Assembly (NCBI GenBank): GCA_050952545.1
Contig: JBMNLD010000002.1
Coordinates: forward strand, 106,889-170,888
DNA length: 64,000 nt
Direction: 5' to 3'
From: Christensenellales bacterium
GTDB taxonomy: Bacteria > Bacillota > Clostridia > Christensenellales > CAZKXV01
In this document: one piece after another, positions 6,925 through 24,340 of the stretch
How positions within the stretch are numbered: the first letter of the stretch is position 1
Layout of the letters: every line of letters begins with the position of its first letter
Position numbers and translations under genes: made by a program
Notes under the pieces: generated by a model
The model's input: only the letters and a program-made list of their open reading frames with translations
What the model was told of the DNA's origin: nothing
Database searches by the model: none

Positions 6925-6941
6925 ATCAATATGCAGAAAAG

Positions 6942-7283
6942 ATGCATCTTAAAAAGTTAGATAATTATTTGCAATTTTTTGATGATATTAAAGATGATTA
7001 TGTTCAGGTCGAAGAAGCTAAGCTAATACGAAAAGATATGTTAGATATCGATACTGTTAAACTTTCTAACATAAAAAACGATTTGTTATTTTATTTAGAT
7101 AGTTTTGGAGATATTGATAGTGAGTCATACAATGGATATGGTTCATTGCCTTTAATAGGGATTACTTGGAATAAATACTTATTAGTTGGATTGTGTAGAA
7201 GTTATTTTACCAATGAAATATTAATAAAATATGATGGAAAACAGTATAAAAAAATTACTTATAAGCTGTCTTTAAACCATTGA
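6942..7283 (+). pseudogene. C-terminal fragment of a larger hypothetical protein
   Basis: No RBS; the frame stays open upstream into the MFS junction; AT-rich codon usage. Confidence 0.45.
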
Positions 7284-7298
7284 TTTAAACCTTAAAAT

Positions 7299-7368
7299 AC
7301 ACAATAGTTGAAAAATATTACGAAAATATTGTAAAACTATTGTGTTTTTTCTTTTTGTTGTTTATAAT
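7299..7368 (+). promoter_or_regulatory. Sigma70-type promoter overlapped by an 11-bp inverted repeat (putative operator)
   Basis: TTGTGT(7340-45)-N17-TATAAT(7363-68); arms ACACAATAGTT (7299-7309) and AACTATTGTGT (7335-7345). Confidence 0.6.
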
Positions 7369-7397
7369 ATAAGTGAAATCAATGAGAGGTGTAGGAT

Positions 7398-7625
7398 ATG
7401 GAAAACAAAAAAGATAATTTTAAGCGTATATCTGAAAATAGAGTATCAAAGATTTTGACTTTACTTTCTCAATTAACTAATTTAAGTAATTCATCTTTTT
7501 ACGAATATACTGATGAGGACATAGAGAAGATATTTAATGCTATTGATGAAGAAGCTAAGAAATCAAAAGAAATATTGCTGAAGTCAAATGATAAAAAAAG
7601 AAAGAATAAAAGGTTTGAGTTATAG
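7398..7625 (+). CDS. Small conserved helical protein (putative regulator/adaptor)
   Basis: GAGAGG RBS; FKRISENRV..L..L.NLSN...YEY..EDI.KIF pattern that I recall from small genes heading RM/defence-associated operons. Confidence 0.7.
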   Translation: MENKKDNFKRISENRVSKILTLLSQLTNLSNSSFYEYTDEDIEKIFNAIDEEAKKSKEILLKSNDKKRKNKRFEL

Positions 7626-7637
7626 GAGGTAACAAAT

Positions 7638-9593: not shown

Positions 9594-10498
9594 AGAATAA
9601 AATATTTCCATACCCAGTTTTAAATAATAATAAGTTATATTCAAATTTTCCGGATGCTTCATTTGAAATAGTTTATGAAGCTGAAGAAGATGAATTTGCA
9701 TATATCCTAAAAAACATAAAATTCTCAACAGATAGTAAATTAATTAATGACTTGTTTGATAATCAAAAGATAGATATTAAACTAGTGGTTGAATGCTCTG
9801 ATACAGTCTTTAGAAAAGCTTTTAATATCAGTAAAGAGCCAAAGAGTATCCGACTTTTGAAAAATGACTTTACTGAAAAAGTTGATGTTTCTATGTTTGC
9901 AGTTGCAAAGGAAAACTTTAGAATTTCATCAAACGAATTTGATGAAGACTATCGCGACATAGAATTCGAAATTGAAAAGTATGATATTTTATGTGCAAAT
10001 GATGGCTTCAATGTTAGATTCAGACATGATGAAGCAGAGAATAATTTAGTTAAATCAATTTTTTCAATAATTCCAAGCGATAATATTAACGATGGTACAT
10101 TTGAAGTTAATTGTGAGTTAGGAAAAAAGATTACTATTTCTATATCTGACGCTGATTTTAAAAATATGAATATAGTTAATACTGTTCCAACATATAAAGA
10201 AGTAGTATTTAATATGCTATTAGTTCCTGCATTGATTGAAGGTTTGACTTTATGTTTGAAAACTGTCCAAGAAGGAACTGATGATTTAGATGATATTGGA
10301 AATAAATACGTTTGGTTTAGAAGTATATTAATGTCATATAAACGTTTATACGGAAAAGATATTACAATTGATGAATTTAAGAGTTCATCACCTGTTCTTT
10401 TAGCACAACAATTGTTAGGAAAGCCACTAGGCGCAGCTTTACATAAGCTTGTTGTTGAAACAAATAAAATAGACGAAGGAGGAAATGATAATGAGTAA
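9584..10498 (+). CDS. Hypothetical protein (N-terminal FPYPVL motif)
   Basis: 304-aa ORF overlapping its upstream and downstream genes. Confidence 0.75.
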   Translation: MQVKNKIFPYPVLNNNKLYSNFPDASFEIVYEAEEDEFAYILKNIKFSTDSKLINDLFDNQKIDIKLVVECSDTVFRKAFNISKEPKSIRLLKNDFTEKVDVSMFAVAKENFRISSNEFDEDYRDIEFEIEKYDILCANDGFNVRFRHDEAENNLVKSIFSIIPSDNINDGTFEVNCELGKKITISISDADFKNMNIVNTVPTYKEVVFNMLLVPALIEGLTLCLKTVQEGTDDLDDIGNKYVWFRSILMSYKRLYGKDITIDEFKSSSPVLLAQQLLGKPLGAALHKLVVETNKIDEGGNDNE

Positions 10499-10850
10499 AA
10501 TCAACATTAAAATGCTTTCAGAAGATGCATTAGTATATTTGAAAGAAAACGCTGAGAGTATTGCAAAGAAAATTGCAGAAAATGAAGATAATTCTTGGAT
10601 TAAAAATACCATTCCTCAATCTATACCTCTATTTGTTGAAAAGAAATTACAAATTGAAGATTTTGATTTGTTAGATAATCCGGAATCAGCCGACAAGAAT
10701 ATAGATTTTCAAAACTCTGTAAAAATTTATGAGTCGTTAAAAGAACTTCCTAGATATATTTTATGCGACCAAAGATTCTGGCTTTGGCTTCACTTGGATA
10801 AGTTCTACAAAACAGTTAGAAATATGATGAAGATTAGAGGGAAATATTAA
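10491..10850 (+). pseudogene. DUF6339-like protein, C-terminally truncated
   Basis: KMLSEDALVYLKEN...NSVKIYESLK.LP.....DQRFWLWLH resembles the DUF6339 N-terminal half; stops at ~120 aa, shorter than I recall for the family. Confidence 0.55.
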
Positions 10851-11352
10851 GATCTATTAATTGTAATGGTTCAGAAAGAAGAACTGGAAGAGAAGCTATA
10901 TTCTGGGGAATGGATAATAATATTCCTTTTCCGCAGGCAAATGATATGACAAAGATTATAAAACTTGTTATGGCTGATGAATCTGTGATTAATGATAAGG
11001 CAAAAGCCATGGAATTAATCCATGTAAGTACGACTAGACAAGTAGCATATTATTTCTCTGCACTTCAATTTTTAAAGTATCTAAAGCATGATAAGACATT
11101 TACTGATAGAGCAAATAATTTGATGAAAAATGAAGGTAAGATTATCCTAGATATTTATAATCAGTTATTAAATAATGAGATGTTTGGTAATGCTTATAAG
11201 CAATTTAAAGATTCAAAAAAAGTAAATGTTGAAGTCATTAAAATGAAATAAGAAAAAACAAGCCTAATTTAGCGGACTCAACTGTAAATAGAAGAGTATC
11301 AACAATTAAGGCATGGGTTGAATGGATGTATGGCATTGATGGTCTAATGTAG
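10838..11352 (+). pseudogene. C-terminal remnant of a restriction-endonuclease-associated winged-helix protein (DUF7226-like), frameshifted near 11240
   Basis: IPFPQAND...TRQVAYYFSALQFL, then in another frame STVNRRVSTIKAWVEW*; one added A at attaaaatg joins the two frames. Confidence 0.55.
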
Positions 11353-11373
11353 ACTTTATACATCTTATTTTAC

Positions 11374-11508
11374 AGTAAATAATTGTAGTGATTTTATTCT
11401 TAAAATTACATTTAGTGGAAACTAATGGTATAGGTATGCTAAAACCTGTTGTTTAGGTGAAAAAAATAACATTTACAAATTTAAGGTCAAATAACTATAG
11501 AGTTATTG
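11374..11508. repeat. ~135-bp diverged direct repeat, copy A
   Basis: About 111/135 identical to 23742-23875 by manual alignment; identical blocks gtatgctaaaacctgt and aaggtcaaataactatagagt. Confidence 0.85.
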
Positions 11509-11608
11509 TAGGTTCAGTAAATTGATAAAATAACTCTTTTGTTATATAATTATTCCGATAATCTGAAGTACCAGAAAGTTGAGGAAGGGCTCAAAGGAGG
11601 TACTTGCT

Positions 11609-11839
11609 ATGGATTATCGAAAAGCCATATTAGATAAAGAAGCAACAAGTATTAGACTTAGGTCCCTTAGAATCAAAGCTAATCTAACACATGATAGACT
11701 AGCTGCATTACTTCAACTAAACACACCTCGTGTGATTTATGATTGGGAATGTGCAAAGAAGATGCCTAATGTTGAAAACTTGTATAATCTGGCTCTAATA
11801 TTTAATATGAAAATGGAGGATTTACTTGTAACCAAGTAG
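11609..11839 (+). CDS. XRE-family helix-turn-helix regulator
   Basis: LRSLRIKANLTHDRLAALL...VIYDWE..K.MP...NL..LA..F; AGGAGG RBS. Confidence 0.85.
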   Translation: MDYRKAILDKEATSIRLRSLRIKANLTHDRLAALLQLNTPRVIYDWECAKKMPNVENLYNLALIFNMKMEDLLVTK

Positions 11840-11929
11840 ATCCTTCTTTTTATTTTTGAACTATAGTACATTTTGAAATTTGACACTTCTGTTATAATAA
11901 TGACGAAAACTGTAAATATGTTCTATATA

Positions 11930-11959
11930 TTGAAATAAATTTCAATAATATGATATAAT
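11930..11959 (+). promoter_or_regulatory. Sigma70-type promoter with extended -10
   Basis: TTGAAA(11930-35)-N18-TATAAT(11954-59), with TG at 11951-52. Confidence 0.55.
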
Positions 11960-12144
11960 TATAGTTGGATACAAATGCATGTTCTGAAACTGTGGAGTAA
12001 GAACTTTACCTATATGGAATGTTGGAGCGAATCTTATGGTTGGGATATACCATATGAGGAGTAAACCAATAGTTAAAAGCTAAATTTCAAGAGTGGTATT
12101 GCGTGTCTAAACAAAATAACATGTGAAGAGGATGAATGTTATTG

Positions 12145-12180
12145 AAGTGGCGATAGGCTAATACCTACCGTCACTTTTTT
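12145..12180 (+). terminator. Intrinsic terminator immediately upstream of the helicase operon
   Basis: AAGTGGCGATAGG-CTAATA-CCTACCGTCACTT stem followed by a T-run. Confidence 0.7.
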
Positions 12181-12203
12181 GGTTTTAAGGAGGTGTCAAT
12201 AAC

Positions 12204-13106
12204 ATGAAGAAAAAGAGCAAGGTTATAGGCAAGGACTACGAAAAATTAGAGAAAGAAAATCGATGCGACAGGATCGATTATTATGGCTTGATTGCCAAAG
12301 ATGGCAGAATAAAAATTGACACAAAACGTTATAAAAAATTCTTTACTATTCCAGATAGTAAAATTGAAAATAGACACTCCGTTTATTACCTTCCGACTAA
12401 ACAACATAGATCTGAATATCAATGTAATTGGTTTAGAGATCTATTAACAGGTTATAAACAATTATGGTTTAAAGAATATAAAAGCTTCATTGATAGTATT
12501 AAAACTCCAAAGCAAGTAGAAGATGATGCAAGAGTCGCACATTTAGCTGATGGAGTGCTTGATTATGAAGAAGCTAATGAAAAAGCATTTATAGCAGGCA
12601 TTAAAAGAGCAAAAGATTATAAAGTAATTATTAAATCTTTATACGCTCAATTTTTCCATCAACTAATGTCTAGCATAGATGCATTATGCTTAAAGATGCT
12701 AACTGCCTGTGGCTATAAAGAAGAAGATTATACAAAGAAGCAATTTGATATTTATATGCAGGGTTTGCAGGGTAACAATGCAATATCGTTCAGACAATAT
12801 GATAATTACAAACTTTATGATAGAGCATTCACTGTTTGGAACTTTCTAAAGCATAACTCTCTTAGATCATATAAGATCTTGAAACAATGGTATCCTAATA
12901 TGGTTTGGGACCCAGAAGATAGATATCAAAATGGTGAATCTGCACTTTCTGTTGTTAAGCTAGATGAGAAATTCATCTTAGATTGTTTGGATAACTTACA
13001 TTTATTCTTTGATGAATTATGTGCGAGAGCTTTTAATGAGAATGCTGAAGACGCACAATGGGATTATGATGATTACTTCTTGAAGACGTCGTACAAGATC
13101 AAATAG
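12204..13106 (+). CDS. Hypothetical protein, possible divergent HEPN domain
   Basis: AAGGAGGT RBS; helical; WNFLKHNS resembles the NxxKH HEPN variant. Confidence 0.6.
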   Translation: MKKKSKVIGKDYEKLEKENRCDRIDYYGLIAKDGRIKIDTKRYKKFFTIPDSKIENRHSVYYLPTKQHRSEYQCNWFRDLLTGYKQLWFKEYKSFIDSIKTPKQVEDDARVAHLADGVLDYEEANEKAFIAGIKRAKDYKVIIKSLYAQFFHQLMSSIDALCLKMLTACGYKEEDYTKKQFDIYMQGLQGNNAISFRQYDNYKLYDRAFTVWNFLKHNSLRSYKILKQWYPNMVWDPEDRYQNGESALSVVKLDEKFILDCLDNLHLFFDELCARAFNENAEDAQWDYDDYFLKTSYKIK

Positions 13107-13147
13107 ATGTTATTGTCAATCCACTAGATATATAGGAGGACAAAAGA

Positions 13148-16100
13148 ATGGCATATATATTTTTATCTTTTAGTGAACATTTAAATAGAGGAGCAAACTC
13201 AAAAAATGATTTTTATAATTTATCATTAAATGAACAATTTGAATTGCTTCAAAGAAGAATCCCATTGGAAAGACAAGTATCTAATTTTAATACTTTTATT
13301 GAAACATGTTTCCCTACTAACTTTAATAAGAAATATTATATTTCTTGCCCTAATTTCTTAAGAGAGAAACATCAAGTAGCAGAAGACAAACCATCTTTTT
13401 TAAATAATGTAGTTATTCGACCAGAATTAACTTTATCAATGAAAAGAGTTCTACCTGACAATCAAAACATCATCTTAATTGGTGATATTTATGAAGGTGG
13501 AAAATTAAAAATGTTACAGATTAAGGGATTACAATTAATTGATGATTCAATGGAATCTCCATATGATGTAAGAGTGGATGATTATTCGGTTTGTAATTCA
13601 TTTGAACGAGGATATTGGAGTATAAATCATGTTGATTACAATGATACATTTTTTACGCCTAACAACATTAAAACGATTATAGATAATTGCTGGACTGTTG
13701 AACATCCTGAGGAAATTAGAAAAACATATGAAGTTTGGAACAAGTATATTGGATTTAGAAAATACTATCTTCAAGAACAATCAAAACGTAATTTCAAATT
13801 AGATAGAGCTATGTTTGTTGAAGCATATGCTGTAAATAGAAAAGATTATAAAAAGAATGCCTCAATTTATGATGAATATCTTCTTGATGGAAGAGATGAA
13901 TTCAAATGGGGAGATATGATTGTTTTATCTGAAAAGATAGAAGATGCTGAAGAATTTCCACTTATTAGATTGGATATTGAAAGAAATAGAAAAGCATTTA
14001 ATGAAGCAAAAATTACTAAACGTGGAAAATTGGTTAATGAAGAAGAACGTAAAATTCGTTCATTATCTAGTGATAATGTATTTATTACTTCTATTGATCC
14101 TGAAAGCAAATCTCAGCATAAGGATAGAAATGGTAATCAACAACAAGTTACATTCGGTGAATTATTAAATGCTGGATATGCATTAGGCGATAGATTTAAA
14201 ATTGTTTCTTATGATATCGAACCCACTGATCATTTAGAAGAGTTAGATTTAGCATATACAAGAGATATAGATAAATCATATAAAAATATAGATGCTAAGT
14301 ATGAGAAGATTATTAAAGAAGAAGTAAAGCAAGCAGTTAATTTATATGAAAAAGAATTAAATAAACAAGCTAAAGAAAGAATTGATTTTTATAAAAATGA
14401 ATTAGATAGTTCTTTAGAACAAGATGTTTTAGAAAATAAAGATAAAAATATTATTAGTTTAATTGATAAAAAGAAAAAAGAAATTGAAACTAATGTTACA
14501 AAGAATATTAAACAAGATAAAAAAGAAAAAGATAATGAATATGCTTTAAGAATAAAAGCATTAATTGAAGATGAAATATCTAAAATTGATGTTAAGTCAT
14601 ATTATGTTGAAAGAAATTCTAAGTTATTACAAGACAATGCTAAAAGTATTGAAATGGAATTAAAGAGATTATTAACACAATATGAAGCAAAAAAGAATTC
14701 TGAAATCACTAACAAATATAAAGATGATGTTAGAAATGAAAAGATTAAATCAAAAGAAGAACTTGATGCTAAGTTAAAGTTTGATAAAGAAAAAGCTATT
14801 GATGAGGAAACAATTATTAGATTCTCATTATATTTTAGATTAGGAGATCCTAATAATGTTATTTCAGACAAACAAAAGAAGGTCGTAGATTCATGCGAAT
14901 ACATTGTTTATGATAATCGTGCTGAAAAAGCTAAGATTTCAAGACAAGAGGCAGCCTTAGATAATTTCTATTCTGGATATGTTAAGAATCCATATCTTTC
15001 AACATATCTTTTTAACCCAGAAGAATTAGATACAGTTAAAGCAGAACCTAGTGATTGGATATGGTATTTAGAATCTCTTAATGAAAAGCAAAAAGAAGCA
15101 GTTAGAAAGGCAGTTTCAAGTAATGGTATATTCTTACTTCAAGGTCCTCCAGGAACTGGTAAAACACAAGTAATTGCTGAAACAGTAGCTCAGTTAATTA
15201 AAAAAGGTAAAAAGGTATTAATTTCATCTGAAACACATAAAGCAATTGATAATGTATTTGAAAGATTACCTAAAATTGCGGAAATCGTACCTATTAGATT
15301 AATTCCTTCTAATAATGATAAAAAGAAAGAAAACGAATATGATCCAAAATTCCTAGTAGATAATTTCTATTTAAATATTTCTTCTAATATGAAGAAAGCT
15401 GTTAATAGATATAAGAATTTTGAAAAGAACAAAATAGAATTTGCTGAAAACTTTGATAAATTAAAGTTGGCAAAAGCCAAAATAGAAAAATCTCAAAAGG
15501 TTTTAGATAAGGCTAACGAAGAAATCAAAAAGTTTGAAGACAATGCTAAAGACATTAATTCTAAGATATCAGTATTAAATGATAAAAAGGACTTGGTCAG
15601 AATTGATATTGATATCTTAAGAAGAACTAAACGTCATATTGAAAATGATAATTTGAGACCTGATGAAGATGTAAAGGTTGACTTGATTGTTGATGTAAGA
15701 AAGAAACTAGAACCTTTATTTGAAAAAGATGTTTATATCGATGATGATTTAGGTCAATTATTAAAGAATATCAATTCAATTAAAAATGATGAAATAGAAC
15801 GTGAATTAGCAGTTATTAATCCTGAATCCAATAAAACTATTCTTGAAGTTAAGAAAAATGATTTAAAGGCTGAATTAAATAAATATGTTGATGAATTAGG
15901 AGACATTATTGATACTAATAATGAGGAAAAAGTTGAAAGAAATTAAAAATGAATTAAGAAAGGTTTTGAAAGAACTTAAGGCTGAATCAGTTGGCGTATC
16001 TTTAAACGATTTAAAACTTAATAAGATTTTTAATTATTCATACTTAGTTGCAAATATTTCTTTAATTCCAGAAGTTATTAGAACTGTAAAAGATAGAATT

Positions 16101-17657
16101 ATTGAGATTAAATCTTCAACGATAGAAGTTCTAAATAAAGAATTACGTACTATTGAAGATAAACAAGCAGAACTAGATAAAGAAATAGATTCATTAAAGC
16201 AACAAATAAAAGTAATTAATGAAAATATTATTGATATTCAAGAAAGAAATGATGTTAAAGATATTCAAGAAGCCAAATATAAGCTTGAGAATGATTTAAT
16301 AAAATTCTTTAAAGATTTTGAAATTGCTGAACCTTATAAGGATGTAGATGAAGGACTAAAGATTATTAAACGTAAATGGTCTGAGCTTGAAGATGATTTC
16401 CAAGCGAAGGAACAAGAAAATAAAGAAAAAATACCTATGTATGAAAAGATCGCAAATTACATCACTAGTGAAGATGTAATTGAAGAAGATAGAAAGGTAT
16501 TTACTAAAGACTTGTTTGAAAATGCTAATGTATTTGGTATTACATGTACATCTAACGATAGATTCAGCGGAAGAAATGTTGATGCATTATCTGAATATAA
16601 TATCGATGAGATTGATATTAAATCCGTTGGTATTGATGTAGTTATTATCGATGAGGTTTCTAAATCAAGTTTTATAGATTTATTGATACCTATTCTTTAT
16701 GGTAAAACAGTTATCCTAGTTGGAGACCATAGACAATTGCCTCCAATGTATGAATTCTCCAAATTAAGAGATGATGATTTTGAAGGATTAGATGAGACAA
16801 TTATTAATAAAGAAATTAATAAAGAGTTTACTAAATTGTATGAAGAGTGTTTCTTCAAAACTCTATTTGAAAGAATACCAGATAGTTATAAAACTATGTT
16901 AGTTCAACAATATAGATGTCATGAACATATTATGAATGTATTTAACCACTTCTATAAAGGCGAATTAAAACTAGGTTTTGCAGGTCAAAACAATAATAAA
17001 CGTCATAATGTTAAATTACTATCAAATGGTAGAAATATTATCGAACCAGATAAACATATTTATTTTGTTGATTGTAAGCAAAATGAAACGCATGAAGCTG
17101 ATTCAACATCTATGTACAATACTGGTGAAGCTAGAGTTGTAGTTGAATTAATCAGAAAAATGAATACATATTTCAAGTCGCATCCAGAACTTGAAAAGCT
17201 AAGCATTGGTGTTATTTGTACATATGGAGACCAAGCTAGAAGAGTAAAAGAATTACTTAAGAGTGAAAAGGTTAAAACAGATGCATTTAAAACAGATGTT
17301 GAAAAAATGATTGTTTCAACTGTCGATGATTTCCAAGGTGATGAAAGAGATATTATCATTTTATCTACAGTTAGAAATCCTGAAAATCCAAAAAGAAGTG
17401 ATCCTGGATTTATCCTAGCTTATCAAAGAATTAATGTTGCTTTATCTAGAGCAAGAAGAATGCTTATTATGGTAGGTAACAGAAAATATCTTGAAGAAAA
17501 AGGTGTGATTGATTTACCAGATGTCTATGGTCGTGTTGGTAAAGAACAAAGAAACTTCAGAGTTTATGAAGAAATCTTAGCTACTATAGAACGCTATGGT
17601 AAAGTAATCGAAGATATTGATGTATTAGATGATAAGGAGGCGAGAATAAATGGATAA
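13148..17657 (+). CDS. Upf1/DNA2-like SF1 helicase (~1500 aa, long coiled coils), split into ORFs 13148-15946 and 15909-17657 by a +1 frameshift at an A5 run (15927-15931)
   Basis: Motifs QGPPGTGKT and SSETHKAIDN in part 1; IIDEVSK, LVGDHRQLPP, QYRCH, TVDDFQGDERD and RINVALSRAR in part 2; removing one A reads EEKLKEIK. Confidence 0.9.
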
Positions 17658-19782
17658 GTTTAAACTAGAAACTTCTATACAATTTCCATTCTTTAAAATG
17701 AATGAACTTGTTACATATTCTGAAGTTAAAAAGCCTAGTGGTGTTGCTTATATTTTACTAGTTCTAATTAGTGAATCTAAGAATAAAAACGATAGATTAT
17801 CCAAAGTATTAGAAAACTTCGGAATACCTAAATCTCTACATTATATTTTCGCTGATAATGTCCAATACTTAATGGAACAAGGAATATTAGAAGAATTTAA
17901 TTTTTATAAAACTGAATTTGATAATTACCTAATTGGTTCATTTCAATTTACTTCAAAAGGTAAAAAGATATTTGCTGAAGAATCTATACCTACAGGTATT
18001 AATAAAGAATTAAAAGTCCCAGTATTTTATAATATTGCAATGAATGAACTATCATTGAAGATGGATAATGATTTAGATCCAAAACCATTAATGGACTGTG
18101 CTATTACTCCTGAATTTATGGATAGATTTAAGAACGAAAAGAATGTTGAAAATTTCTTAAATCTTCAAAAAGGAAAAGGAATAAGTGTTAAAAAAGAAGA
18201 AATCATAACTAATGTAGAACAATTAGATCAAGAAAATTGGATCGGAAAATATGATTGCGATATGAACATTAATGGCGATGATATTGAAATTAAATTTGAT
18301 GAATTGCTATTACAAAAATTCTTTGATGCTAATTACAATCAAAACATGGTTAATTTAGCTATTTCTTATAAAAACAGATTTAAGTTTAAATCATCTTTTA
18401 AAGATAATCTTAAACTAAGTAATTATGGTTTTGATAGAATTGCAGGAATAATTATTCCAAAAGAGATAGATGATGTTTTAAAACAAAAGAATCAATTATT
18501 ACTTACAAAGGGTAATTATAAAACTTCAAATGGTTATATGATTACTAGTTCGGAGTCTATTTCAAAATATGATGATACGATTGAATTTATTCAAGTAGAT
18601 ATGCACGATTCTGTTTATGCATATATTCCAGGCAATTTTAATTTTAACAATAATCTATTTGGAATTATTACAATTCCTCTTGCTTTAAAGATTAAATTGA
18701 CTGAAGAAGAATTGAAAAATGTCATTAAACCTTATGTAGTATCATTATCTACATATAGTGAAGATAATTTTAAAGAATTAGTTAAGGTCACAAATATCAC
18801 TGATGACTTGAAGCTAGCAAAAGAGATTATTGAAGGTTATGTAAATGAAGATGCTGAAAGTAATATTGTTTTATTAAATGAAATGAAGCCATATGCTATA
18901 TCTAATTCAGGTATATCAAATATTTATAGAGAATTGTTAGAAAAGAATTATAGCAATTATATGGATACCATCACTGAAGATAATCTTGATACAGCACTTA
19001 AGATAACTGCTTCAATTCCTAAGTTCTTAAATATTCCAAATAAGGATGTTTTATCAAGAATATTTAAGAATATAAAAGTTAAAAACGAGTTAGAAACTTA
19101 TGAAACATTAGTAAGTAAAGGCTTTGATAAATCACTAGTTGTTTTATATGTTAATCCAGTAATTGAAGCATTAAAGATAAGAAATTCTGAAGAAAAAAGC
19201 ATAATTGATTTAATTAACTATGATGATGCTTTATCAGAAATGAAGAGAATAACTTCTATTAACGATTACAAGAGTTATTTATATGATGAAGAAAAGATTA
19301 ATCATAATGATTTCAAAACAAACTATAATAAAGCATTTAATCTTCAAAAGAATATTGCTGTATTTAGAAGTGGTAATGAAGGATTATTTGCTAATTATGA
19401 TGGGTTCATGAATTTATTCTCAACTATTAATGATGATATTAATTTAGTTGAAGCTGCACTTAAGAATCCTAATAATTTAAAGCCAGAATTAATTGAAAAG
19501 AAAATAGCTAGTGGTGAATATCAATTTGTATTTGTTAATCTTTCTGCAAAATTAGAAACAATTTTAAAAAACAAATATAAATTAGATGGCAAATTATCTG
19601 ATATGTTAAATGACGCAAGATCTAATGGTATAATTGATAAGAAGGTTATTAGTGATTTGCATGATTTTAGAGATAATAGAAATGCATATGTTCATCCTGA
19701 AGATAGAACATCAAATTATAATGCTGATGATTTAAGAAGATGGTCTAAAGAAATCTTTGATTTGGAGGTGGAAGGAAAATGA
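17650..19782 (+). CDS. 710-aa hypothetical protein with a C-terminal HEPN-like motif
   Basis: Overlaps the helicase stop; C-terminal DLHDFRDNRNAYVHP fits the Rx4H HEPN motif. Confidence 0.7.
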   Translation: MDKFKLETSIQFPFFKMNELVTYSEVKKPSGVAYILLVLISESKNKNDRLSKVLENFGIPKSLHYIFADNVQYLMEQGILEEFNFYKTEFDNYLIGSFQFTSKGKKIFAEESIPTGINKELKVPVFYNIAMNELSLKMDNDLDPKPLMDCAITPEFMDRFKNEKNVENFLNLQKGKGISVKKEEIITNVEQLDQENWIGKYDCDMNINGDDIEIKFDELLLQKFFDANYNQNMVNLAISYKNRFKFKSSFKDNLKLSNYGFDRIAGIIIPKEIDDVLKQKNQLLLTKGNYKTSNGYMITSSESISKYDDTIEFIQVDMHDSVYAYIPGNFNFNNNLFGIITIPLALKIKLTEEELKNVIKPYVVSLSTYSEDNFKELVKVTNITDDLKLAKEIIEGYVNEDAESNIVLLNEMKPYAISNSGISNIYRELLEKNYSNYMDTITEDNLDTALKITASIPKFLNIPNKDVLSRIFKNIKVKNELETYETLVSKGFDKSLVVLYVNPVIEALKIRNSEEKSIIDLINYDDALSEMKRITSINDYKSYLYDEEKINHNDFKTNYNKAFNLQKNIAVFRSGNEGLFANYDGFMNLFSTINDDINLVEAALKNPNNLKPELIEKKIASGEYQFVFVNLSAKLETILKNKYKLDGKLSDMLNDARSNGIIDKKVISDLHDFRDNRNAYVHPEDRTSNYNADDLRRWSKEIFDLEVEGK

Positions 19783-20867
19783 GTCAACAAGTAACCGTTG
19801 ATTATCAAGGTGTATCTATTCAAGTACAAGCTAAATGTGACACAGCTGTTCATTCATTGTGTCAAATAGATAAAGTGCTTGATAGAATACATAATACAGC
19901 AGATAAACTTGAAACTGCTAAAGTAAAAGAGTATGAAGCTTATTTGCAAAAATCCAAGGAAACAATCAAAGAAAAGATTGAAGCGTTTAAGAAGACTCTA
20001 GAAAAATACAAAGAAGCTAGGGCTTATTCAGTTAATAATCATCAACCAGATTATCAACAATTCATTAACTTTACTAATAAGGTTCAAGCTGAATCAGAAG
20101 AATTAATTAGAACAGTTAATGAATTAACTGGTTCTAAACTTGCAGTAATAGATCAGATGATTGATGAAGGCTTATTAAATGCTGGTCAGGAAACAACTCA
20201 AGCTATGTTAGATAAATTGCATGGTGTAGTTTCAATCTCAAGTGACATTTTATCCAAGATAAATAACATTGAAGATGTTTCATTAAGAGAACTAGCATAT
20301 AAAGAAATCCTTAAGAACGATAAACTTAGCTTTGATGAAGTAATCACTAAAGCACAAGATGAATATGATATTCTTTTAGGAAAACAAACAAAAAAGGTTA
20401 TTCAAGAATATAAAGAAGAGCTTACTTCTAAAGGTATTACTACAGAAGAATTAGATAAAGCTAAATCTATTGATGAAGCTAATGCTATTGCTAATGAAGC
20501 AATTACTGATGAAACGGTAAGAAAAGAAACTTTAAAAGTTATTATTAAAGCAATCAAAGATAGAGGATTCATTGTTGATACAAAGAAGAATCTTAAGATT
20601 GATAAAGAAAGAAATATTGTTAAATTAGTTGCATTAAAAGCATCTGGACAAATGGCTGAGTTTGAAATTCAACTTAATGGTAAGTTTATGTACCACTTTG
20701 ATGAATATGAAGGCCATGCATGTAAGAAAGATATAGAACCATTCTTAGAAGATTTAAAGAATATCTACGATATCAATATTCTTCATGAAGAAGTAACGTG
20801 GGAAAATCCAGATAAGATTCAAACTCAAAAATATCAATACATAAACAAAAACAAGGGTACTAATTAG
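19779..20867 (+). CDS. Coiled-coil protein with a C-terminal DUF2997-like domain
   Basis: ATGA overlap with the upstream stop; helical N-terminus; C-terminal FDEYEGHACKKDIEPFLEDL. Confidence 0.6.
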   Translation: MSQQVTVDYQGVSIQVQAKCDTAVHSLCQIDKVLDRIHNTADKLETAKVKEYEAYLQKSKETIKEKIEAFKKTLEKYKEARAYSVNNHQPDYQQFINFTNKVQAESEELIRTVNELTGSKLAVIDQMIDEGLLNAGQETTQAMLDKLHGVVSISSDILSKINNIEDVSLRELAYKEILKNDKLSFDEVITKAQDEYDILLGKQTKKVIQEYKEELTSKGITTEELDKAKSIDEANAIANEAITDETVRKETLKVIIKAIKDRGFIVDTKKNLKIDKERNIVKLVALKASGQMAEFEIQLNGKFMYHFDEYEGHACKKDIEPFLEDLKNIYDINILHEEVTWENPDKIQTQKYQYINKNKGTN

Positions 20868-20878
20868 GAGGTAAACAC

Positions 20879-22696
20879 ATGTCTTTACAAAATAGTTTTA
20901 ATAAAATCAGAAGAAATGCTGGAATTAAAAAATGTGTCATGATTGATGGCAATGTTGGTGACGTTTATCTAAATGAAAAGAATAATATCGTTACATTAAG
21001 AGAATATCTTGAAGCAATGTTCAAGGATATGGATTATCAAGACATTGTTTACTGGGATAGAGTTGAAGGTGCAACTGGTGCAATTGATAAGCTAACTTTA
21101 ACTGATGAAGTTGAAGTAGAAGGTGATGCATACGATTTAGGTGATGATGAAGAAGAAACACCAAAAGCACAACAAGGTTTATTTAAATCACCTGCTGAAA
21201 TTTTAAATGTTGTTTATAAGAATGTAATTGATAAAAAGAAGAAAGTTGCTTTTATTATTAACTGGTCAGAATATCTATTTAGTGTTAATGGGTTAAGTGA
21301 TGATGAAAGACAAAATATTACATTATTAGGGAAAGCATTAAAGGATAGAAAAGTTGATTATTTAAATACTGACTGCAATGAAAGTGTTGTTGTCATTATT
21401 TTAAATAAAGCATCTGGATTACCATTATCTTTCTATCAAGGGAATCCTGAAGTTGAAATTGTAACATTACAAAAACCAGATAGAGAAGAAAGAAAACAAA
21501 TGATTCAAAAAATAGAAGATTCATTTGAAGTAAGATTAAAATCTGGTACTAGTTCATTGCTAGATGCTGAAAATATAGATTGTATTGATATGCTTGAAGA
21601 TTTTACTAATCGTGAGATTATTCAATTATCAAGAATGTCTAGAAAAGAAGATAAGATGACTTTTGATAAGTTGTTCTATTTATTTAAATATGGTGAAAAA
21701 GAAAATCCATGGGAAAAATTAGAACAATCTAGAGTTAAAAACATTAAAAAAGAATTATCTGATAGAGTTATAGGTCAAGAAGAAGCGATTGACAAAATAG
21801 AAAAGACTGTTGTTAAAGCATATATGGGTTTAACAGGCCTTCATAAAACTTCATCAAGATCAATGCCAAAAGGTGTATTCTTCTTTGTTGGTCCTACTGG
21901 TGTAGGTAAAACTGAGCTTTCAAAGGCTTTAGCTAAATTCTTATTTGGTGATGAACAAGCTTGTATTAGATTTGATATGTCTGAATATGCTCAAGAGAAT
22001 AGTGATCAAAAATTAATAGGTGCTGCACCTGGATATGTTGGATATGAAGAAGGTGGCCAATTAACAAATGCTATTAAAGAACACCCATTCTCAGTTGTTC
22101 TGTTTGATGAAATTGAAAAGGCTGCAAAACCTAATCCACGTATTCTAGATATATTCTTACAAATTTTGGAAGATGGTCGCTTAACTGATTCTAAAGGTGA
22201 AACTGTATACTTCAGCGACACAATTATAGTATTCACATCTAACTTAGGTGCTAACCAAGTTCAAGCATCATCTGATAAAGAAGGTGTAGCAAAAGAATTT
22301 ATTAAGATTGTAAAAGATTACTTTGATAATGAATTAAAGAGACCAGAATTATTAGGACGTATCGGATACAATAATATCGTTCCATTTAATTTCATTCAAG
22401 ATAGAGATTTCCAAGTTAAGATTTGTAAGAACAAACTAAAACCAGTTATCAGGGGAATAGAAGAAAAATATAAACTTGAATTGGAATTTGAAAAAGAATT
22501 GGAAGCTATCGAATATATCCTAAAAGCTGTAGATTCATCAAAAGGTGGTCGTGATATTTTAAATGCTATCAATGATAGATTATTAGATCCTCTTGCAATG
22601 TTCTTATTTGAAAATAAAGATGAGTTACGTTCTTTAAAAGGAAGTAGAATTATTACAAAGGTAACTAAAGATGGATTCAGCTTTGACTTCGATTAA
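20879..22696 (+). CDS. ClpB/ClpA-like AAA+ ATPase (single intact NBD2-type module, degenerate N-terminal half)
   Basis: GPTGVGKT, RFDMSEY, LIGAAPGYVGYEEGGQLT and VVLFDEIEKA; no second Walker A. Confidence 0.9.
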   Translation: MSLQNSFNKIRRNAGIKKCVMIDGNVGDVYLNEKNNIVTLREYLEAMFKDMDYQDIVYWDRVEGATGAIDKLTLTDEVEVEGDAYDLGDDEEETPKAQQGLFKSPAEILNVVYKNVIDKKKKVAFIINWSEYLFSVNGLSDDERQNITLLGKALKDRKVDYLNTDCNESVVVIILNKASGLPLSFYQGNPEVEIVTLQKPDREERKQMIQKIEDSFEVRLKSGTSSLLDAENIDCIDMLEDFTNREIIQLSRMSRKEDKMTFDKLFYLFKYGEKENPWEKLEQSRVKNIKKELSDRVIGQEEAIDKIEKTVVKAYMGLTGLHKTSSRSMPKGVFFFVGPTGVGKTELSKALAKFLFGDEQACIRFDMSEYAQENSDQKLIGAAPGYVGYEEGGQLTNAIKEHPFSVVLFDEIEKAAKPNPRILDIFLQILEDGRLTDSKGETVYFSDTIIVFTSNLGANQVQASSDKEGVAKEFIKIVKDYFDNELKRPELLGRIGYNNIVPFNFIQDRDFQVKICKNKLKPVIRGIEEKYKLELEFEKELEAIEYILKAVDSSKGGRDILNAINDRLLDPLAMFLFENKDELRSLKGSRIITKVTKDGFSFDFD

Positions 22697-23225
22697 GTTT
22701 AATGTAGCATATATAAAATTATGCACTAAAACTGAAGGTCCGTATAAGAGATGCTGCATTTGGTTTCAAGGATGTAACATCAATTGCAGAGGATGTTGTA
22801 ATAAGAATTTGCAACCATTAGTTCCAAATCATATAGTTACATTAAAAGAACTTATCGATATTGTTAAAGAAGCTAAAGATAAGTTTGATATAGAAGGTAT
22901 AACTCTCAGTGGTGGAGAGCCTTCTTTACAAACTGGTTTAAAATACTTTAATAATGAGATTCGTAAATTAGGATTAGGAATCATAATGTTTTCAGGAAAA
23001 AGCAAAACTTATCTAGATAAAAGTCTAGTTGAATCTGTTGATTTATTAATTGATGGTCCGTTTATTGAAGAACAACTTGATGACAAGAGAGTATTATTAG
23101 GTTCTAAGAATAAGGAACTATCTTTTATTACTGATAGATATAAAAAAGAAGAAGGATACTTCGACAATCCTATATCTATTGAAGAAGTAACAGCAGAAGA
23201 TTATATCTTCATAAATGGGGACTGA
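22671..23225 (+). CDS. NrdG/PFL-activase-like radical SAM (4Fe-4S) protein
   Basis: WFQGCNINCRGC (CxxxCxxC), GITLSGGEP and DLLIDGPF. Confidence 0.9.
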   Translation: MDSALTSIKFNVAYIKLCTKTEGPYKRCCIWFQGCNINCRGCCNKNLQPLVPNHIVTLKELIDIVKEAKDKFDIEGITLSGGEPSLQTGLKYFNNEIRKLGLGIIMFSGKSKTYLDKSLVESVDLLIDGPFIEEQLDDKRVLLGSKNKELSFITDRYKKEEGYFDNPISIEEVTAEDYIFINGD

Positions 23226-23227
23226 TT

Positions 23228-23728
23228 ATGGATAAAAAAAGAATAGAAAGTGAAATGAGAGAATTAGAAATTAAAATTCATTATCATTTTAATGACATAT
23301 CATGGCTTGCTAAAGCTATGGGTTCTATAAAAATACCTGTTCCAGGTCAAGGAAAGAATGGTTCTGAATATTCTAATGAAGGCTTGGCTACTGTTGGTGA
23401 TACTATATTAAAATCAGTTATTGCTGATAAGTTTTATAGAGAAGGAATAAGAACCAAAGGTGAGATTACAATTAAAAAGAGCGGTATAGAAGACAATGCA
23501 ACAATGCATGATGTAATGATCTACGAAGGTTTAATTGATTATTCTTATAACGATTTACATTTCTTCAAAGATCCAAATATTCCTGACCATGAGCAAGTTG
23601 TGCATAAGGCACATGATCCATATATTGAAGCTATGGTTGGAGCTGTGTATTATGATTCAGGAAATTATGACACAACTAAACGCTGGATTCTAAAGTGGTT
23701 ATTACCTCTTTTAGAGAAGTATAAATAG
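23228..23728 (+). CDS. Ribonuclease III-domain protein lacking a dsRBD (Mini-III-like)
   Basis: NEGLATVGDTIL and YIEAMVGAVYYD; only 166 aa. Confidence 0.8.
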   Translation: MDKKRIESEMRELEIKIHYHFNDISWLAKAMGSIKIPVPGQGKNGSEYSNEGLATVGDTILKSVIADKFYREGIRTKGEITIKKSGIEDNATMHDVMIYEGLIDYSYNDLHFFKDPNIPDHEQVVHKAHDPYIEAMVGAVYYDSGNYDTTKRWILKWLLPLLEKYK

Positions 23729-23741
23729 CACCAATTCTAAT

Positions 23742-23875
23742 AGTAAATAATGTTAGTTATTTGTATCTCAAAATGACATTTAATTGAAAGTAATGGAAAA
23801 TGTATGCTAAAACCTGTCGTTTAAGTGAAAATTTTAATTTAACAAATTGAAGGTCAAATAACTATAGAGTGATTG
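23742..23875. repeat. ~135-bp diverged direct repeat, copy B
   Basis: See copy A; begins 14 bp after the RNase III-like stop codon. Confidence 0.85.
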
Positions 23876-23891
23876 ACACTTAAATAGATAG

Positions 23892-23920
23892 AAAGGTAGG
23901 AGTGATTCTTACCTTTTTTC
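23892..23920 (+). terminator. Intrinsic terminator at the end of the AT-rich operon
   Basis: AAAGGTAGGA-GTGAT-TCTTACCTTT followed by T-runs. Confidence 0.65.
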
Positions 23921-24035
23921 TTTTTACAACATAGCTACTATATAGGTCGTTAATTGAAAAGTATTATCTTAAGCAAATTATATTTACTAGATAAATCTAG
24001 TAAAATGGAAGCAATAATAAAGGCGTGGTGGTAAT

Positions 24036-24095
24036 TTGGATAAGAAAGAATACTTAAGTCGATATCATAATTTAATAGAACGAATTGAAATATAA
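24036..24095 (+). pseudogene. 5' stub of a phage-type gene (DUF1492/ArpU-like), cut at the repeat junction
   Basis: TTG start after GGTGGT; reads MDKKEYLSRYHNLIERIE and then enters the repeat at 24090. Confidence 0.3.
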
Positions 24096-24184
24096 GCTAG
24101 ACAGCGACAAGCAAAAGGGAGACATAGCAAAAATACGGACAAAAAGTCCGTATTTGCTATGCGACTATAAGCGCAGTCGTTGTC
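24090..24184 (-). repeat. tRNA-linked multi-hairpin element, tRNA-proximal partial copy
   Basis: 24090-24186 is identical to 2559-2655; abuts the CCA of tRNA-Val. Confidence 0.9.
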
Positions 24185-24260
24185 TGGTGGGCAATAAGGG
24201 ACTCGAACCCCTGACTTCCTCCATGTGACGGAGGCACTCTACCAACTGAGTCAATTGCCC
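24185..24260 (-). tRNA. tRNA-Val(CAC)
   Basis: 76-nt cloverleaf GGGCAATT...CCACCA; anticodon arm CCTCC-GT CAC AT-GGAGG; GTTCGA T-loop. Confidence 0.95.
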
Positions 24261-24264
24261 TCTC

Positions 24265-24340
24265 TGGTGGAGATGAGGGGGATCGAACCCCTTACCTCTT
24301 GAATGCCATTCAAGCGCTCTACCAACTGAGCTACACCCCC
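24265..24340 (-). tRNA. tRNA-Ala(GGC)
   Basis: 76-nt cloverleaf GGGGGTGT...CCACCA; anticodon arm CTTGA-AT GGC AT-TCAAG; G3:U70. Confidence 0.97.

What the first reader, a model, noticed from the sequence alone, without database searches (positions are those of the whole stretch)
19779..23225. Orphan glycyl-radical-activase-like enzyme coupled to a one-ring ClpB-like ATPase
NrdG/PflA-type activases normally sit with a glycyl radical enzyme, and none is in this window. Here the activase overlaps a ClpB-like gene that has only NBD2 motifs and follows a coiled-coil/DUF2997-like protein. The radical SAM enzyme may modify a protein partner presented by the AAA+ ATPase, or a nucleotide, which would be new chemistry in a conflict system (inference).
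Basis: partly seen in the sequence, partly recalled or inferred. Interest (0 to 1): 0.62.

Follow-up and report, generated by a model that had tools for sequence, protein, structure and literature searches.

The report
Unfoldase plus radical-SAM module of defence cassette
A small iron-sulfur "radical" enzyme of the kind that normally switches on anaerobic ribonucleotide reductase is instead permanently tied to a Clp-type protein-unfolding motor and a new-domain protein, as the back half of a widespread, apparently undescribed, probably anti-phage helicase/RNase operon, which hints at radical chemistry on a protein in bacterial immunity.

Summary
Window 19779-23225 carries three intact, tightly coupled genes. 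C is a 362-aa helical protein. D is a 605-aa ClpB/ClpC-like AAA+ protein. E is a 184-aa NrdG-like radical-SAM protein that overlaps D by 26 nt. No glycyl-radical enzyme (GRE) is nearby, and the host's four GREs each have their own activase elsewhere.

Two details need correcting. C gives no Pfam DUF2997/DUF1257 match. D is not simply one-ring, because its N-terminal half looks like a degenerate first AAA+ ring.

The trio is the conserved 3' half of a five-gene cassette: a Upf1/MkoA-like helicase, a HEPN (or PIN) nuclease protein, then C, D and E. It lies in a 27% G+C island next to tRNA-Val. The same cassette recurs in 28 species-level genomes of gut Bacilli/Mollicutes and on proteobacterial plasmids. 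The D-E pair also occurs with other helicase/nuclease or kinase partners. E forms its own clade beside true NrdG.

No paper or defence database I searched describes the module. The most likely reading is a mobile anti-phage system in which E acts on a protein held or threaded by D. The chemistry is untested. In this window the helicase gene is frameshifted.

The parts
12204..13106 (+). Optional leading gene (300 aa, no family) of the operon
   Evidence: No Pfam or NCBIfam hit. Homologues sit upstream of the helicase in about half of the related loci.
13148..17657 (+). Gene A: Upf1/MkoA/CnuH-like SF1 helicase with a long coiled-coil insert. In this window it is split into two ORFs (13148-15946 and 15909-17657) by one extra A near 15935-15938.
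   Evidence: AAA_11 5e-20, AAA_12 3.3e-44; PADLOC MkoA 2.4e-33 and 2e-65. It is a single ORF of about 1507 aa in relatives. The indel is seen against L012 and L019.
17650..19782 (+). Gene B: 710-aa protein with a C-terminal HEPN-type domain (DUF4145; RNAYVH = Rx4H). Predicted RNase effector.
   Evidence: DUF4145 4.1e-05, 24 bits against a cut-off of 23.1, residues 629-695. Replaced by a PIN-domain protein in the proteobacterial cassettes.
19779..20867 (+). Gene C: helical N-terminal 240 aa that evolve fast, plus a new, highly conserved C-terminal alpha/beta domain carrying G-x3-Y-x-F-x2-Y-x-G-x2-C-x2-D.
   Evidence: No Pfam, PADLOC, NCBIfam or PHROG family. AF2 pTM 0.72. 386 clusters at 50% identity share the domain. 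The motif is >=97% conserved in 149 of them and is kept in Gammaproteobacteria.
20879..22696 (+). Gene D: ClpB/ClpC-type AAA+ protein with a degenerate D1-like N-half (1-280) and an intact D2 threading ring (282-599). No ClpP-docking loop.
   Evidence: It is 65-100% identical across Firmicute loci and 34-46% identical to the full-length homologues from the six plasmid loci in alignment A6 (four proteobacterial, one Clostridia, one cyanobacterial).
22671..23225 (+). Gene E: NrdG-clade radical-SAM protein. Motifs: EGPxxR, CX3CX2C(C), GGEP and GSxN, plus a family-specific C-terminal extension of about 35 aa.
23228..23728 (+). Optional accessory: RNase III-domain protein (166 aa, Mini-III-like).
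   Evidence: Ribonuclease_3 5.1e-06; RNaseIII TIGR02191 3.7e-08, far below its cut-off. Present behind E in only 6 of the related loci (L012, L014, L019, L020, L021, L023).

Best explanation
Genes C, D and E are the conserved 3' module of a horizontally mobile five-gene operon, A to E, that is most likely an undescribed anti-phage or anti-mobile-element system.

A is an RNA/ssDNA-type SF1 helicase. B is a HEPN protein (PIN in other lineages). Together they form a helicase-plus-nuclease arm of the Mokosh/CnuH-CnuE type.

D is a hexameric Clp-type threading motor. Its first ring is catalytically dead and its second ring is fully intact, and it has no protease-docking loop. E is a minimal radical-SAM enzyme that branched off from the NrdG activases.

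D and E are made together (overlapping genes) and probably work as one unit. E reductively cleaves SAM, and the 5'-deoxyadenosyl radical abstracts a hydrogen from a protein rather than a small molecule. The likeliest substrate is the invariant Y-x-G-x-x-C loop of C's C-terminal domain, or a polypeptide that D unfolds and presents. This radical step would arm, switch or reset the nuclease arm, or directly damage an invader protein.

Shown: gene content, order, coupling, motif integrity, phylogenetic position, distribution and mobile context.

Inferred: the defence role, a C-D-E complex, a protein substrate, and the link to the nuclease.

In this particular genome the helicase gene carries a +1 frameshift, so the full cassette may be inactive unless that is an assembly error.
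For: Conserved cassette:
- A, B, C, D and E occur in the same order in L001-L007 and in most of L012-L037.
- The trio stands alone in L008-L011, L038 and L039.
- Plasmids of Photobacterium, Acinetobacter, Polaromonas and Leisingera carry the same five genes with PIN in place of HEPN.

D-E pair in other settings:
- Aristaeella: with a DUF4011 helicase, kinases, an FHA protein and a phosphatase.
- Caballeronia: followed by a 2101-aa ORF.
- Rhizobium: with a HEPN-motif protein upstream.

Mobile or defence context:
- A 26-30% G+C island in a 45% genome, ending at tRNA-Val.
- PADLOC PDC-M33A/B lies just upstream.
- Neighbours elsewhere include recombinases, GIY-YIG, SLFN/AlbA_2, Macro, Bro-N, HigB and transposases.

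E:
- It aligns end to end with the host's own NrdG (29% identity).
- It keeps CX3CX2C, GGEP and an EGPxxR motif (EGPGLR in proteobacteria).
- In the tree it forms one clade inside the NrdG side, separated from PflA types with 100/99 support.

D:
- All D2 motifs are invariant.
- Two-ring Clp structures are the best fold matches.

C:
- Its C-terminal motif is >=97% conserved across 149 clusters at 50% identity.

Not described elsewhere:
- Full-text searches returned no paper describing this module; the three checked for the key terms (Ophion preprint, CoCoNuT paper, eLife 2020) do not couple a ClpB-like ATPase to a radical-SAM enzyme.
- C matches no PADLOC model, and E gives only a weak pVip hit over the cluster-binding region.
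Against: - There is no experimental evidence of defence for any member, and no direct evidence of a C-D-E complex or of E's substrate.
- C's G312 loop is longer and less regular in distant relatives (Geminocystis, Aristaeella), where only the Cys is clearly kept.
- In Caballeronia and Rhizobium D-E has no detectable C, so C may not be the universal substrate.
- Small radical-SAM enzymes such as QueE act on small molecules, so E's size alone does not prove a protein substrate.
- One locus (L031) has lost E while keeping A-D.
- The window's copy has a broken helicase.
Confidence: 0.55

Rival explanations
1. E is a small-molecule radical-SAM enzyme, as viperin and QueE are. It would make a modified nucleotide (a chain terminator or a signal), and D and C would act independently as chaperone or scaffold.
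For: Weak pVip and QueE hits over the cluster-binding region: PADLOC pVip 1.6e-06, QueE TIGR03963 9e-06. The operon has RNA-directed parts (helicase, HEPN/PIN, RNase III).
Against: Those hits cover only residues 28-112 and lie far below the family cut-offs (viperin 22.9 bits against 180). Full-length similarity and the tree place E with the NrdG protein activases. E keeps the EGP(G)xR motif, which in PFL-AE contacts the substrate peptide (from knowledge of PDB 3CB8). No nucleotide kinase or other nucleotide-handling gene is linked.
Confidence: 0.15
2. E is an ordinary or spare NrdG/GRE activase carried by a mobile element, serving a host glycyl-radical enzyme in trans. Its linkage to D would be incidental.
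For: The best family hits are NrdG, NrdG2 and PflA. The host is an anaerobe with four GREs.
Against: E scores half the NrdG cut-off and forms a separate clade. It is never next to NrdD or a GRE in more than 40 loci, but is next to D in all except two of them (L031 has lost E; in L042 E lies about 8.7 kb away), often with overlapping reading frames. Every host GRE already has its own adjacent or fused activase.
Confidence: 0.03
3. The cassette is not immunity. It would be an addiction, stress or RNA-surveillance module of mobile elements, in which D-E matures or recycles a cassette protein (for example by resetting a damaged or trapped component) without any role against phages.
For: It occurs on plasmids and islands, sometimes beside toxin-antitoxin genes. 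No phage-sensing domain was identified.
Against: The architecture (SF1 helicase plus swappable HEPN/PIN nuclease, a fast-evolving partner protein, defence-island neighbours, patchy distribution across phyla) is the pattern of known defence systems such as Mokosh and CoCoNuT.
Confidence: 0.12
4. In this genome the locus is a decaying remnant. With the helicase frameshifted, the trio is no longer functional here.
For: An extra A near 15935-15938 splits gene A relative to L012, L019 and L001. The neighbouring PDC-M33 unit was noted as possibly decayed by another reader (untested).
Against: C, D and E are intact. Of the three, only D is nearly unchanged against the nearest relative L012 (about 100% identical); C and E are 96% and 93% identical. 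Trio-only loci exist and keep intact ORFs. A single-base change in an A/T-rich run is a common assembly error.
Confidence: 0.3

Closest known systems
NrdG, activase of class III ribonucleotide reductase (TIGR02491), and PFL-activating enzyme (PDB 3C8F/3CB8, 8FO0)
   Same: Same minimal radical-SAM fold family (Fer4_12). Shares CX3CX2C, GGEP, an (D/E)GPxxR motif and a C-terminal GSxN motif. E is 29% identical end to end to the host's own NrdG.
   Different: Scores half the NrdG cut-off. Forms a separate clade with a long stem. Has a conserved C-terminal extension of about 35 aa and an extra Cys after the cluster motif. Is never linked to a glycyl-radical enzyme and is almost always adjacent to a Clp-like ATPase.
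Mokosh type I (MkoA helicase + MkoB PLD nuclease) and the CnuH-CnuE helicase/nuclease pairs of type II/III CoCoNuT systems (Bell et al. 2024, PMC11090510)
   Same: Gene A hits MkoA models and has the coiled-coil insert after Walker A. Gene B is a long protein ending in a swappable nuclease (HEPN here, PIN elsewhere), as described for CnuE.
   Different: There is no PLD nuclease and no McrBC-like CnuB/CnuC. In their place stands the C-D-E trio. The CoCoNuT paper contains no occurrence of 'radical SAM', 'ClpB' or 'Clp'.
Dodola (DolA DUF6414 + DolB ClpB-like ATPase) and PADLOC candidate PDC-M37
   Same: D hits DolB (4.4e-21) and PDC-M37B (1.1e-33) through its NBD2-type ATPase core.
   Different: The hits cover only residues 223-463. 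No DolA/DUF6414 or M37A partner is present. D has its own conserved degenerate D1. Neither system includes a radical-SAM gene.
Radical-SAM enzymes already tied to defence: prokaryotic viperins, Ophion OpnA, the HXS maturase
   Same: A radical-SAM enzyme in a defence-type operon. HXS and Aravind's FtsH ternary systems already propose or show radical-SAM modification of a protein or peptide effector.
   Different: E belongs to a different branch of the superfamily, the GRE-activase/NrdG branch. It lacks SPASM or viperin-specific parts. Its partner set is different: an AAA+ unfoldase and protein C.
Skd3/human CLPB and other NBD2-only Hsp100 disaggregases
   Same: A single active NBD2-type ring with a GYVG pore loop and no ClpP-docking loop.
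   Different: The N-terminal part is a dead AAA+ domain with a long acidic insert at the pore-loop position, not ankyrin repeats. The gene is coupled to a radical-SAM gene.

Membership tests
NrdG (TIGR02491 equivalog) | Radical-SAM core: CX3CX2C cluster motif and GGE SAM-binding motif | tested here: met
   C35-x3-C39-x2-C42 and G81-G82-E83-P84 are invariant in 7 diverse members. Fer4_12 8.4e-23.
NrdG (TIGR02491 equivalog) | Score at or above the curated cut-off of the equivalog model | tested here: not met
   63.4 bits against 126.1. NrdG2 59.5 against 131; PRK11121 47.8 against 199.
NrdG (TIGR02491 equivalog) | Cognate class III reductase NrdD encoded with it | tested here: not met
   There is no NRDD or Gly_radical match in the window. 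The host's two NrdD genes lie at C3:680479 and C1:6710, each with its own activase. None of more than 40 related loci has NrdD next to E.
NrdG (TIGR02491 equivalog) | Branches within bona fide NrdG in a tree | tested here: not met
   The 16 cassette proteins form their own clade (91/90; 98/93 without the long-branch L045). That clade lies beside, not inside, the NrdG groups. NrdG plus cassette are separated from PflA types with 100/99 support.
Glycyl-radical-enzyme activases in general | A partner protein with a glycyl-radical domain (RVxG[FY] loop, PF01228/PF13597) | tested here: not met
   No such domain was found in C or D. D has an invariant G64 in (R)V-x-G-hydrophobic, but it sits at the pore-loop-1 position after beta2 and may be a pore-loop remnant. 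C has an invariant Y-x-G-x-x-C, which is not the GRE fingerprint.
ClpB/Hsp104 | Two active nucleotide-binding domains, a coiled-coil middle domain and a Clp_N domain | tested here: not met
   Only NBD2 is matched (residues 282-599; 254.9 bits against a cut-off of 1232). The N-half has GNVGD in place of Walker A. There are no Clp_N or M-domain hits. The fold search still aligns both halves to two-ring Clp proteins.
Dodola | DolA (DUF6414) together with DolB | tested here: not met
   The DolB hit is partial (4.4e-21, residues 272-458). No DolA model hits any operon protein.
Mokosh type I | MkoA helicase together with the MkoB PLD nuclease | tested here: not met
   MkoA hits on both halves of gene A (2.4e-33, 2e-65). 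There is no MkoB or PLD hit; the effector is HEPN/DUF4145 instead.
CoCoNuT type II/III | CnuB/CnuC (McrBC-type GTPase and partner) with CnuH and CnuE | tested here: not met
   A CnuH/CnuE-like pair is present by architecture. No McrB or McrC homologue is in the operon.
Prokaryotic viperin (pVip) | Full-length match to viperin models | tested here: not met
   PADLOC pVip 1.6e-06 over residues 33-110 only. NF038283 scores 22.9 bits against a cut-off of 180.
DUF2997 / DUF1257 | Match to the Pfam models | tested here: not met
   No hit at E<=5 in any of 30 members of the C family. The resemblance of the G-x-x-C motif is by eye only.

The most novel reading that the evidence does not exclude
E is a true protein-radical activase whose substrate belongs to the immune complex itself. 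The substrate would be the invariant Y-x-G-x-x-C loop of C, or a segment of D or of a polypeptide threaded by D. The cassette would then use a glycyl/thiyl-type protein radical, or a radical-derived cleavage or crosslink, as its switch or weapon, with a dedicated Clp-type unfoldase to present or reset the radical-bearing chain. This would be the first protein-radical mechanism in prokaryotic immunity and a new job for the GRE-activase lineage.
Probability: 0.25. Interest if true: 0.9.

Novelty: new variant of a known kind. Interest (0 to 1): 0.7.

Why it matters
GRE activases are thought to exist only to switch on glycyl-radical metabolic enzymes. Here a whole clade of them has been recruited, together with a dedicated Clp-type unfoldase and a protein with a new and very highly conserved domain, into a mobile helicase/RNase cassette. 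That cassette occurs from gut Mollicutes-like Bacilli to proteobacterial and cyanobacterial plasmids.

If the cassette is defensive, it adds a new accessory logic (ATP-driven unfolding plus radical chemistry) to the helicase-nuclease systems. It also offers a tractable case in cultured hosts, for example the Acinetobacter, Photobacterium or Polaromonas plasmids, for asking what a GRE-activase-like enzyme does without a GRE.

It would also explain many 'anaerobic ribonucleotide reductase activating protein' and '4Fe-4S single cluster domain' annotations that are probably wrong.

Tried and rejected
1. Pfam scan of 30 C-family members at E<=5 for DUF2997/DUF1257 gave nothing.

2. Fold search of the C model against the PDB gave only a weak match of the C-terminal domain to the N-domain of spermine synthase, an AdoMetDC-like fold (E 2e-3, TM 0.2 over about 99 columns). 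This is too weak to name a fold.

3. A profile of C's C-terminal domain was searched against 1.84 billion representatives. The family is large (386 clusters), but only the best 150 are listed and all have the same architecture. A distant link to DUF2997 could not be tested. The longer members have no Pfam domain.

4. I looked for a glycyl-radical fingerprint. D's 'RVEGA' around the invariant G64 looked suggestive. However, the residues before the Gly vary (PVTG, GIRG, MIDG, PLSG), and the site is the pore-loop-1 position of a degenerate AAA+ domain. I do not count it as a GRE motif.

5. A ClpP-coupled protease role for D was rejected. In the alignment with ClpE, the VGF docking tripeptide region has no counterpart.

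6. Literature searches found no description. Term searches covered radical SAM with ClpB, Clp-like, NrdG, HEPN and Upf1-like. I also searched the RefSeq protein accessions of the plasmid copies. Ophion, HXS and Aravind's FtsH ternary systems involve other radical-SAM branches.

8. I considered Dodola, Mokosh, CoCoNuT, pVip and PDC-M37 as homes for the locus. Each lacks a defining partner (see the membership test).


Full report
**What is in the window**

Window 6.9-23.8 kb is a 26-30% G+C island in a genome of about 45% G+C. It ends at tRNA-Val(CAC) and tRNA-Ala (24185-24340).

On the + strand the island carries a run of tightly packed genes:
- a PADLOC PDC-M33A/B pair (7638-10498)
- an HTH gene
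- a 300-aa ORF
- a split SF1 helicase (13148-15946 and 15909-17657)
- a 710-aa protein (17650-19782)
- the three genes of the finding: C (19779-20867, 362 aa), D (20879-22696, 605 aa) and E (22671-23225, 184 aa)
- an RNase III-domain gene (23228-23728)

The junctions point to one operon. B and C share an ATGA overlap. C and D are 11 nt apart with a GGAGG site. D and E overlap by 26 nt. E and the RNase III gene are 2 nt apart.

**The observation**

E is a Fer4_12/Radical_SAM protein (8.4e-23 and 3.2e-10). Its best NCBIfam hits are NrdG (63.4 bits, cut-off 126.1), NrdG2 and PflA. PFL-activating enzyme is the only solved relative found by sequence.

D matches AAA_2 and ClpB/ClpC/ClpE NBD2 over residues 280-600. 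The following D2 motifs are all invariant in relatives:
- Walker A, GPTGVGKT
- Walker B, LFDEIEKA
- the GYVG pore loop
- sensor 1, TSN
- GGR

In the alignment with ClpE, the region of the VGF ClpP-docking tripeptide has no counterpart. D therefore resembles a ClpB-type motor, not one coupled to a protease.

C has no family in Pfam, NCBIfam, PADLOC or PHROGs.

No glycyl-radical enzyme is in the window. The 1.83-Mb genome has four, and each has its own adjacent or fused activase:
- two NrdD genes (C3:680479 and C1:6710)
- a PFL-like enzyme (C3:229043-231535)
- an unusual activase-GRE fusion of 1106 aa (C2:72748-76068)

E is therefore a supernumerary orphan.

First, 'DUF2997-like' is not supported by any Pfam hit in 30 family members.

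Second, D's first 280 residues are a degenerate AAA+ domain rather than something foreign. The AF2 model shows a five-stranded beta-alpha-beta core plus a helical lid, with a disordered acidic insert (61-107) at the pore-loop position. Foldseek aligns 536-704 columns to two-ring ClpC/ClpB/ClpA, against 329 columns for an isolated NBD2. The sequence has GNVGD where Walker A should be, plus the usual strand/P-x4-R landmarks.

**Conservation**

E has more than 355 close homologues, and C has 243.

Context look-ups showed two arrangements:
- a 300-aa gene, an intact 1507-aa helicase, the 710-aa protein, then C, D and E (L001-L007; this includes a Malacoplasma contig read with TGA=Trp)
- C, D and E alone, beside glyS (L008-L011)

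A scan of one genome per species with the C alignment returned 28 loci. All are from MAGs labelled mostly as gut Bacilli, Mollicutes-like bacteria, Erysipelotrichaceae or Acholeplasmataceae, with a few labelled Clostridia and three with other labels. In 24 of the 25 loci with enough DNA, C is followed by D and E, and D and E nearly always overlap. L031 has lost E. The RNase III gene follows E in only six loci. D is the most conserved gene (65-100% identity), then E (58-93%). C (32-96%) and B (28-88%) evolve fast, and in C the change lies mostly in the helical N-terminal part.

Full-length D homologues on plasmids showed the same five-gene order in Photobacterium toruni, Acinetobacter sp. WCHA55, Polaromonas naphthalenivorans and Leisingera thetidis. 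There gene B is annotated as a PIN-domain protein instead of HEPN.

The D-E pair also occurs in other settings:
- on an Aristaeella plasmid, in the order E then D, among a DUF4011 helicase, two kinases, an FHA protein and a phosphatase
- in Caballeronia, followed by a 2101-aa ORF
- in Rhizobium, behind a protein with a HEPN-type RNxxxH motif

A Geminocystis plasmid has D next to a C-like coiled-coil protein, with a 4Fe-4S gene about 8.7 kb away.

So D-E is the mobile core, C is its usual companion, and the helicase/nuclease arm is exchangeable. This is the modular pattern typical of defence systems.

**Where E belongs**

E aligns end to end with the host's own NrdG (29% identity). Both share the (D/E)GPxxR, CX3CX2C, GGEP and C-terminal GSxN motifs. 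E adds a conserved extension of about 35 residues.

I built a maximum-likelihood tree with 16 cassette proteins, 16 NrdG-type proteins and 8 PflA-type proteins from related genomes. The cassette proteins form one clade, with 91/90 support, or 98/93 without one long branch. That clade sits on the NrdG side of a 100/99 split from the PflA types, but it is not nested in any NrdG group.

**Protein C**

AF2 gives a helical N-terminal part and a small alpha/beta C-terminal domain (pTM 0.72). There is no convincing structural neighbour.

A profile of that domain finds 386 clusters at 50% identity. Almost all are proteins of 340-400 aa with the domain at the C-terminal end.

In 149 of these clusters, G290, G301, Y305, F307, Y310, G312, C315, D318, Y330, N343 and P344 are at least 97% conserved. 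The motif F-x2-Y-x-G-x2-C-x2-D is also kept in gammaproteobacterial copies that are only about 20% identical overall. In the most distant C-like proteins the loop before the Cys is longer.

Conservation this strong marks an active or modified site. The loop 311-313 is the only low-confidence stretch inside the domain.

**Most likely function**

The A-B pair matches what Bell et al. (PMC11090510) describe for CnuH-CnuE. CnuH is a Upf1-like helicase with a coiled-coil insert. CnuE is a long protein ending in a swappable nuclease. Gene A also hits Mokosh MkoA models. That paper does not mention radical SAM or Clp.

In the cassette, the C-D-E trio stands where CoCoNuTs have McrBC-like parts.

I therefore read the locus as an undescribed helicase/RNase defence-type cassette whose accessory module couples an ATP-driven threading motor to a GRE-activase-like radical enzyme. 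E's nearest relatives all act on proteins, and E is translationally coupled to an unfoldase. The likeliest chemistry is therefore hydrogen abstraction from a protein, either C's invariant loop or a chain presented by D. This step would serve to arm, switch or reset the nuclease arm, or to damage an invader protein.

This step is inference, and I rate the protein-radical reading at about 25-30%. I rate the statement that this is a conserved, mobile, probably defensive cassette, and not GRE metabolism, at about 80%.

**Rival readings**

The rivals are set out in the report sections. They are a viperin- or QueE-like small-molecule product, a spare NrdG, a non-immune mobile-element function, and local decay.

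**Caveat for this genome**

Gene A is split by one extra A near 15935-15938, relative to L012 (a near-identical relative), L019 and L001.

**Novelty**

Full-text searches found no description of this module, whether by terms or by the RefSeq accessions of the plasmid copies. PADLOC has no model for C or E and only partial ATPase-core hits for D (DolB, PDC-M37B).

Radical-SAM enzymes are known in defence (viperins, Ophion, HXS), and radical-SAM modification of peptide effectors has been proposed before. The kind is therefore not wholly new, but this branch of the superfamily and its partnership with a Clp-type motor are.

Other agents of this scan reached similar views in other genomes. I treated those notes as leads. 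I reproduced the cassette, the plasmid distribution, the dead D1 and the C motif from my own calls.

Noticed in passing
window 15927-15945: The helicase gene (A) is split into two overlapping ORFs by one extra A in GTTGAAAG, where relatives L012 and L019 have GTTGAAG. It is either a real frameshift or an assembly error.
   Followed up: partly
window 7638-10498: Two genes give very strong hits to the PADLOC candidate system PDC-M33 (M33A 2.6e-132, M33B 1.4e-52). This looks like a second defence-type unit in the same low-GC island.
   Followed up: no
window 6900-24340: The whole 17-kb stretch has 26-30% G+C against about 45% in the flanks, and it ends at tRNA-Val(CAC)/tRNA-Ala(GGC). This looks like an island acquired from a low-GC (Mollicutes-like) donor and integrated at the tRNA.
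   Followed up: partly
own genome C2:72748-76068 (about 31 kb upstream of the window): One 1106-aa ORF combines an N-terminal GRE-activase domain (Fer4_12) with a C-terminal glycyl-radical domain. This is an activase-GRE fusion. A homologue exists in a relative (L067).
   Followed up: no
L031 and L039 (same MAG, CAUUJG01): One genome carries both a five-gene-type copy that has lost E (A-B-C-D only) and a separate trio-only copy that has E.
   Followed up: partly
L045 (Aristaeella lactis plasmid NZ_CP069422.1, 15062-32924): Here the D-E pair is in reversed order (E then D). It lies among a DUF4011 helicase, two Ser/Thr kinases, an FHA protein, a PP2C-type phosphatase and a DUF6273 protein. This is a quite different, phosphorylation-based setting for the same pair.
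   Followed up: partly
window 23228-23728: The RNase III-domain gene is Mini-III-like (LATVGD and IEAMVGA motifs). It is present behind E in only 6 related loci, so it is an optional add-on.
   Followed up: partly
L005-L007, L029 (Malacoplasma sp.): The cassette is also found in a genome that reads TGA as Trp, with all five genes open only under code 4. This shows transfer across a genetic-code boundary followed by adaptation.
   Followed up: no
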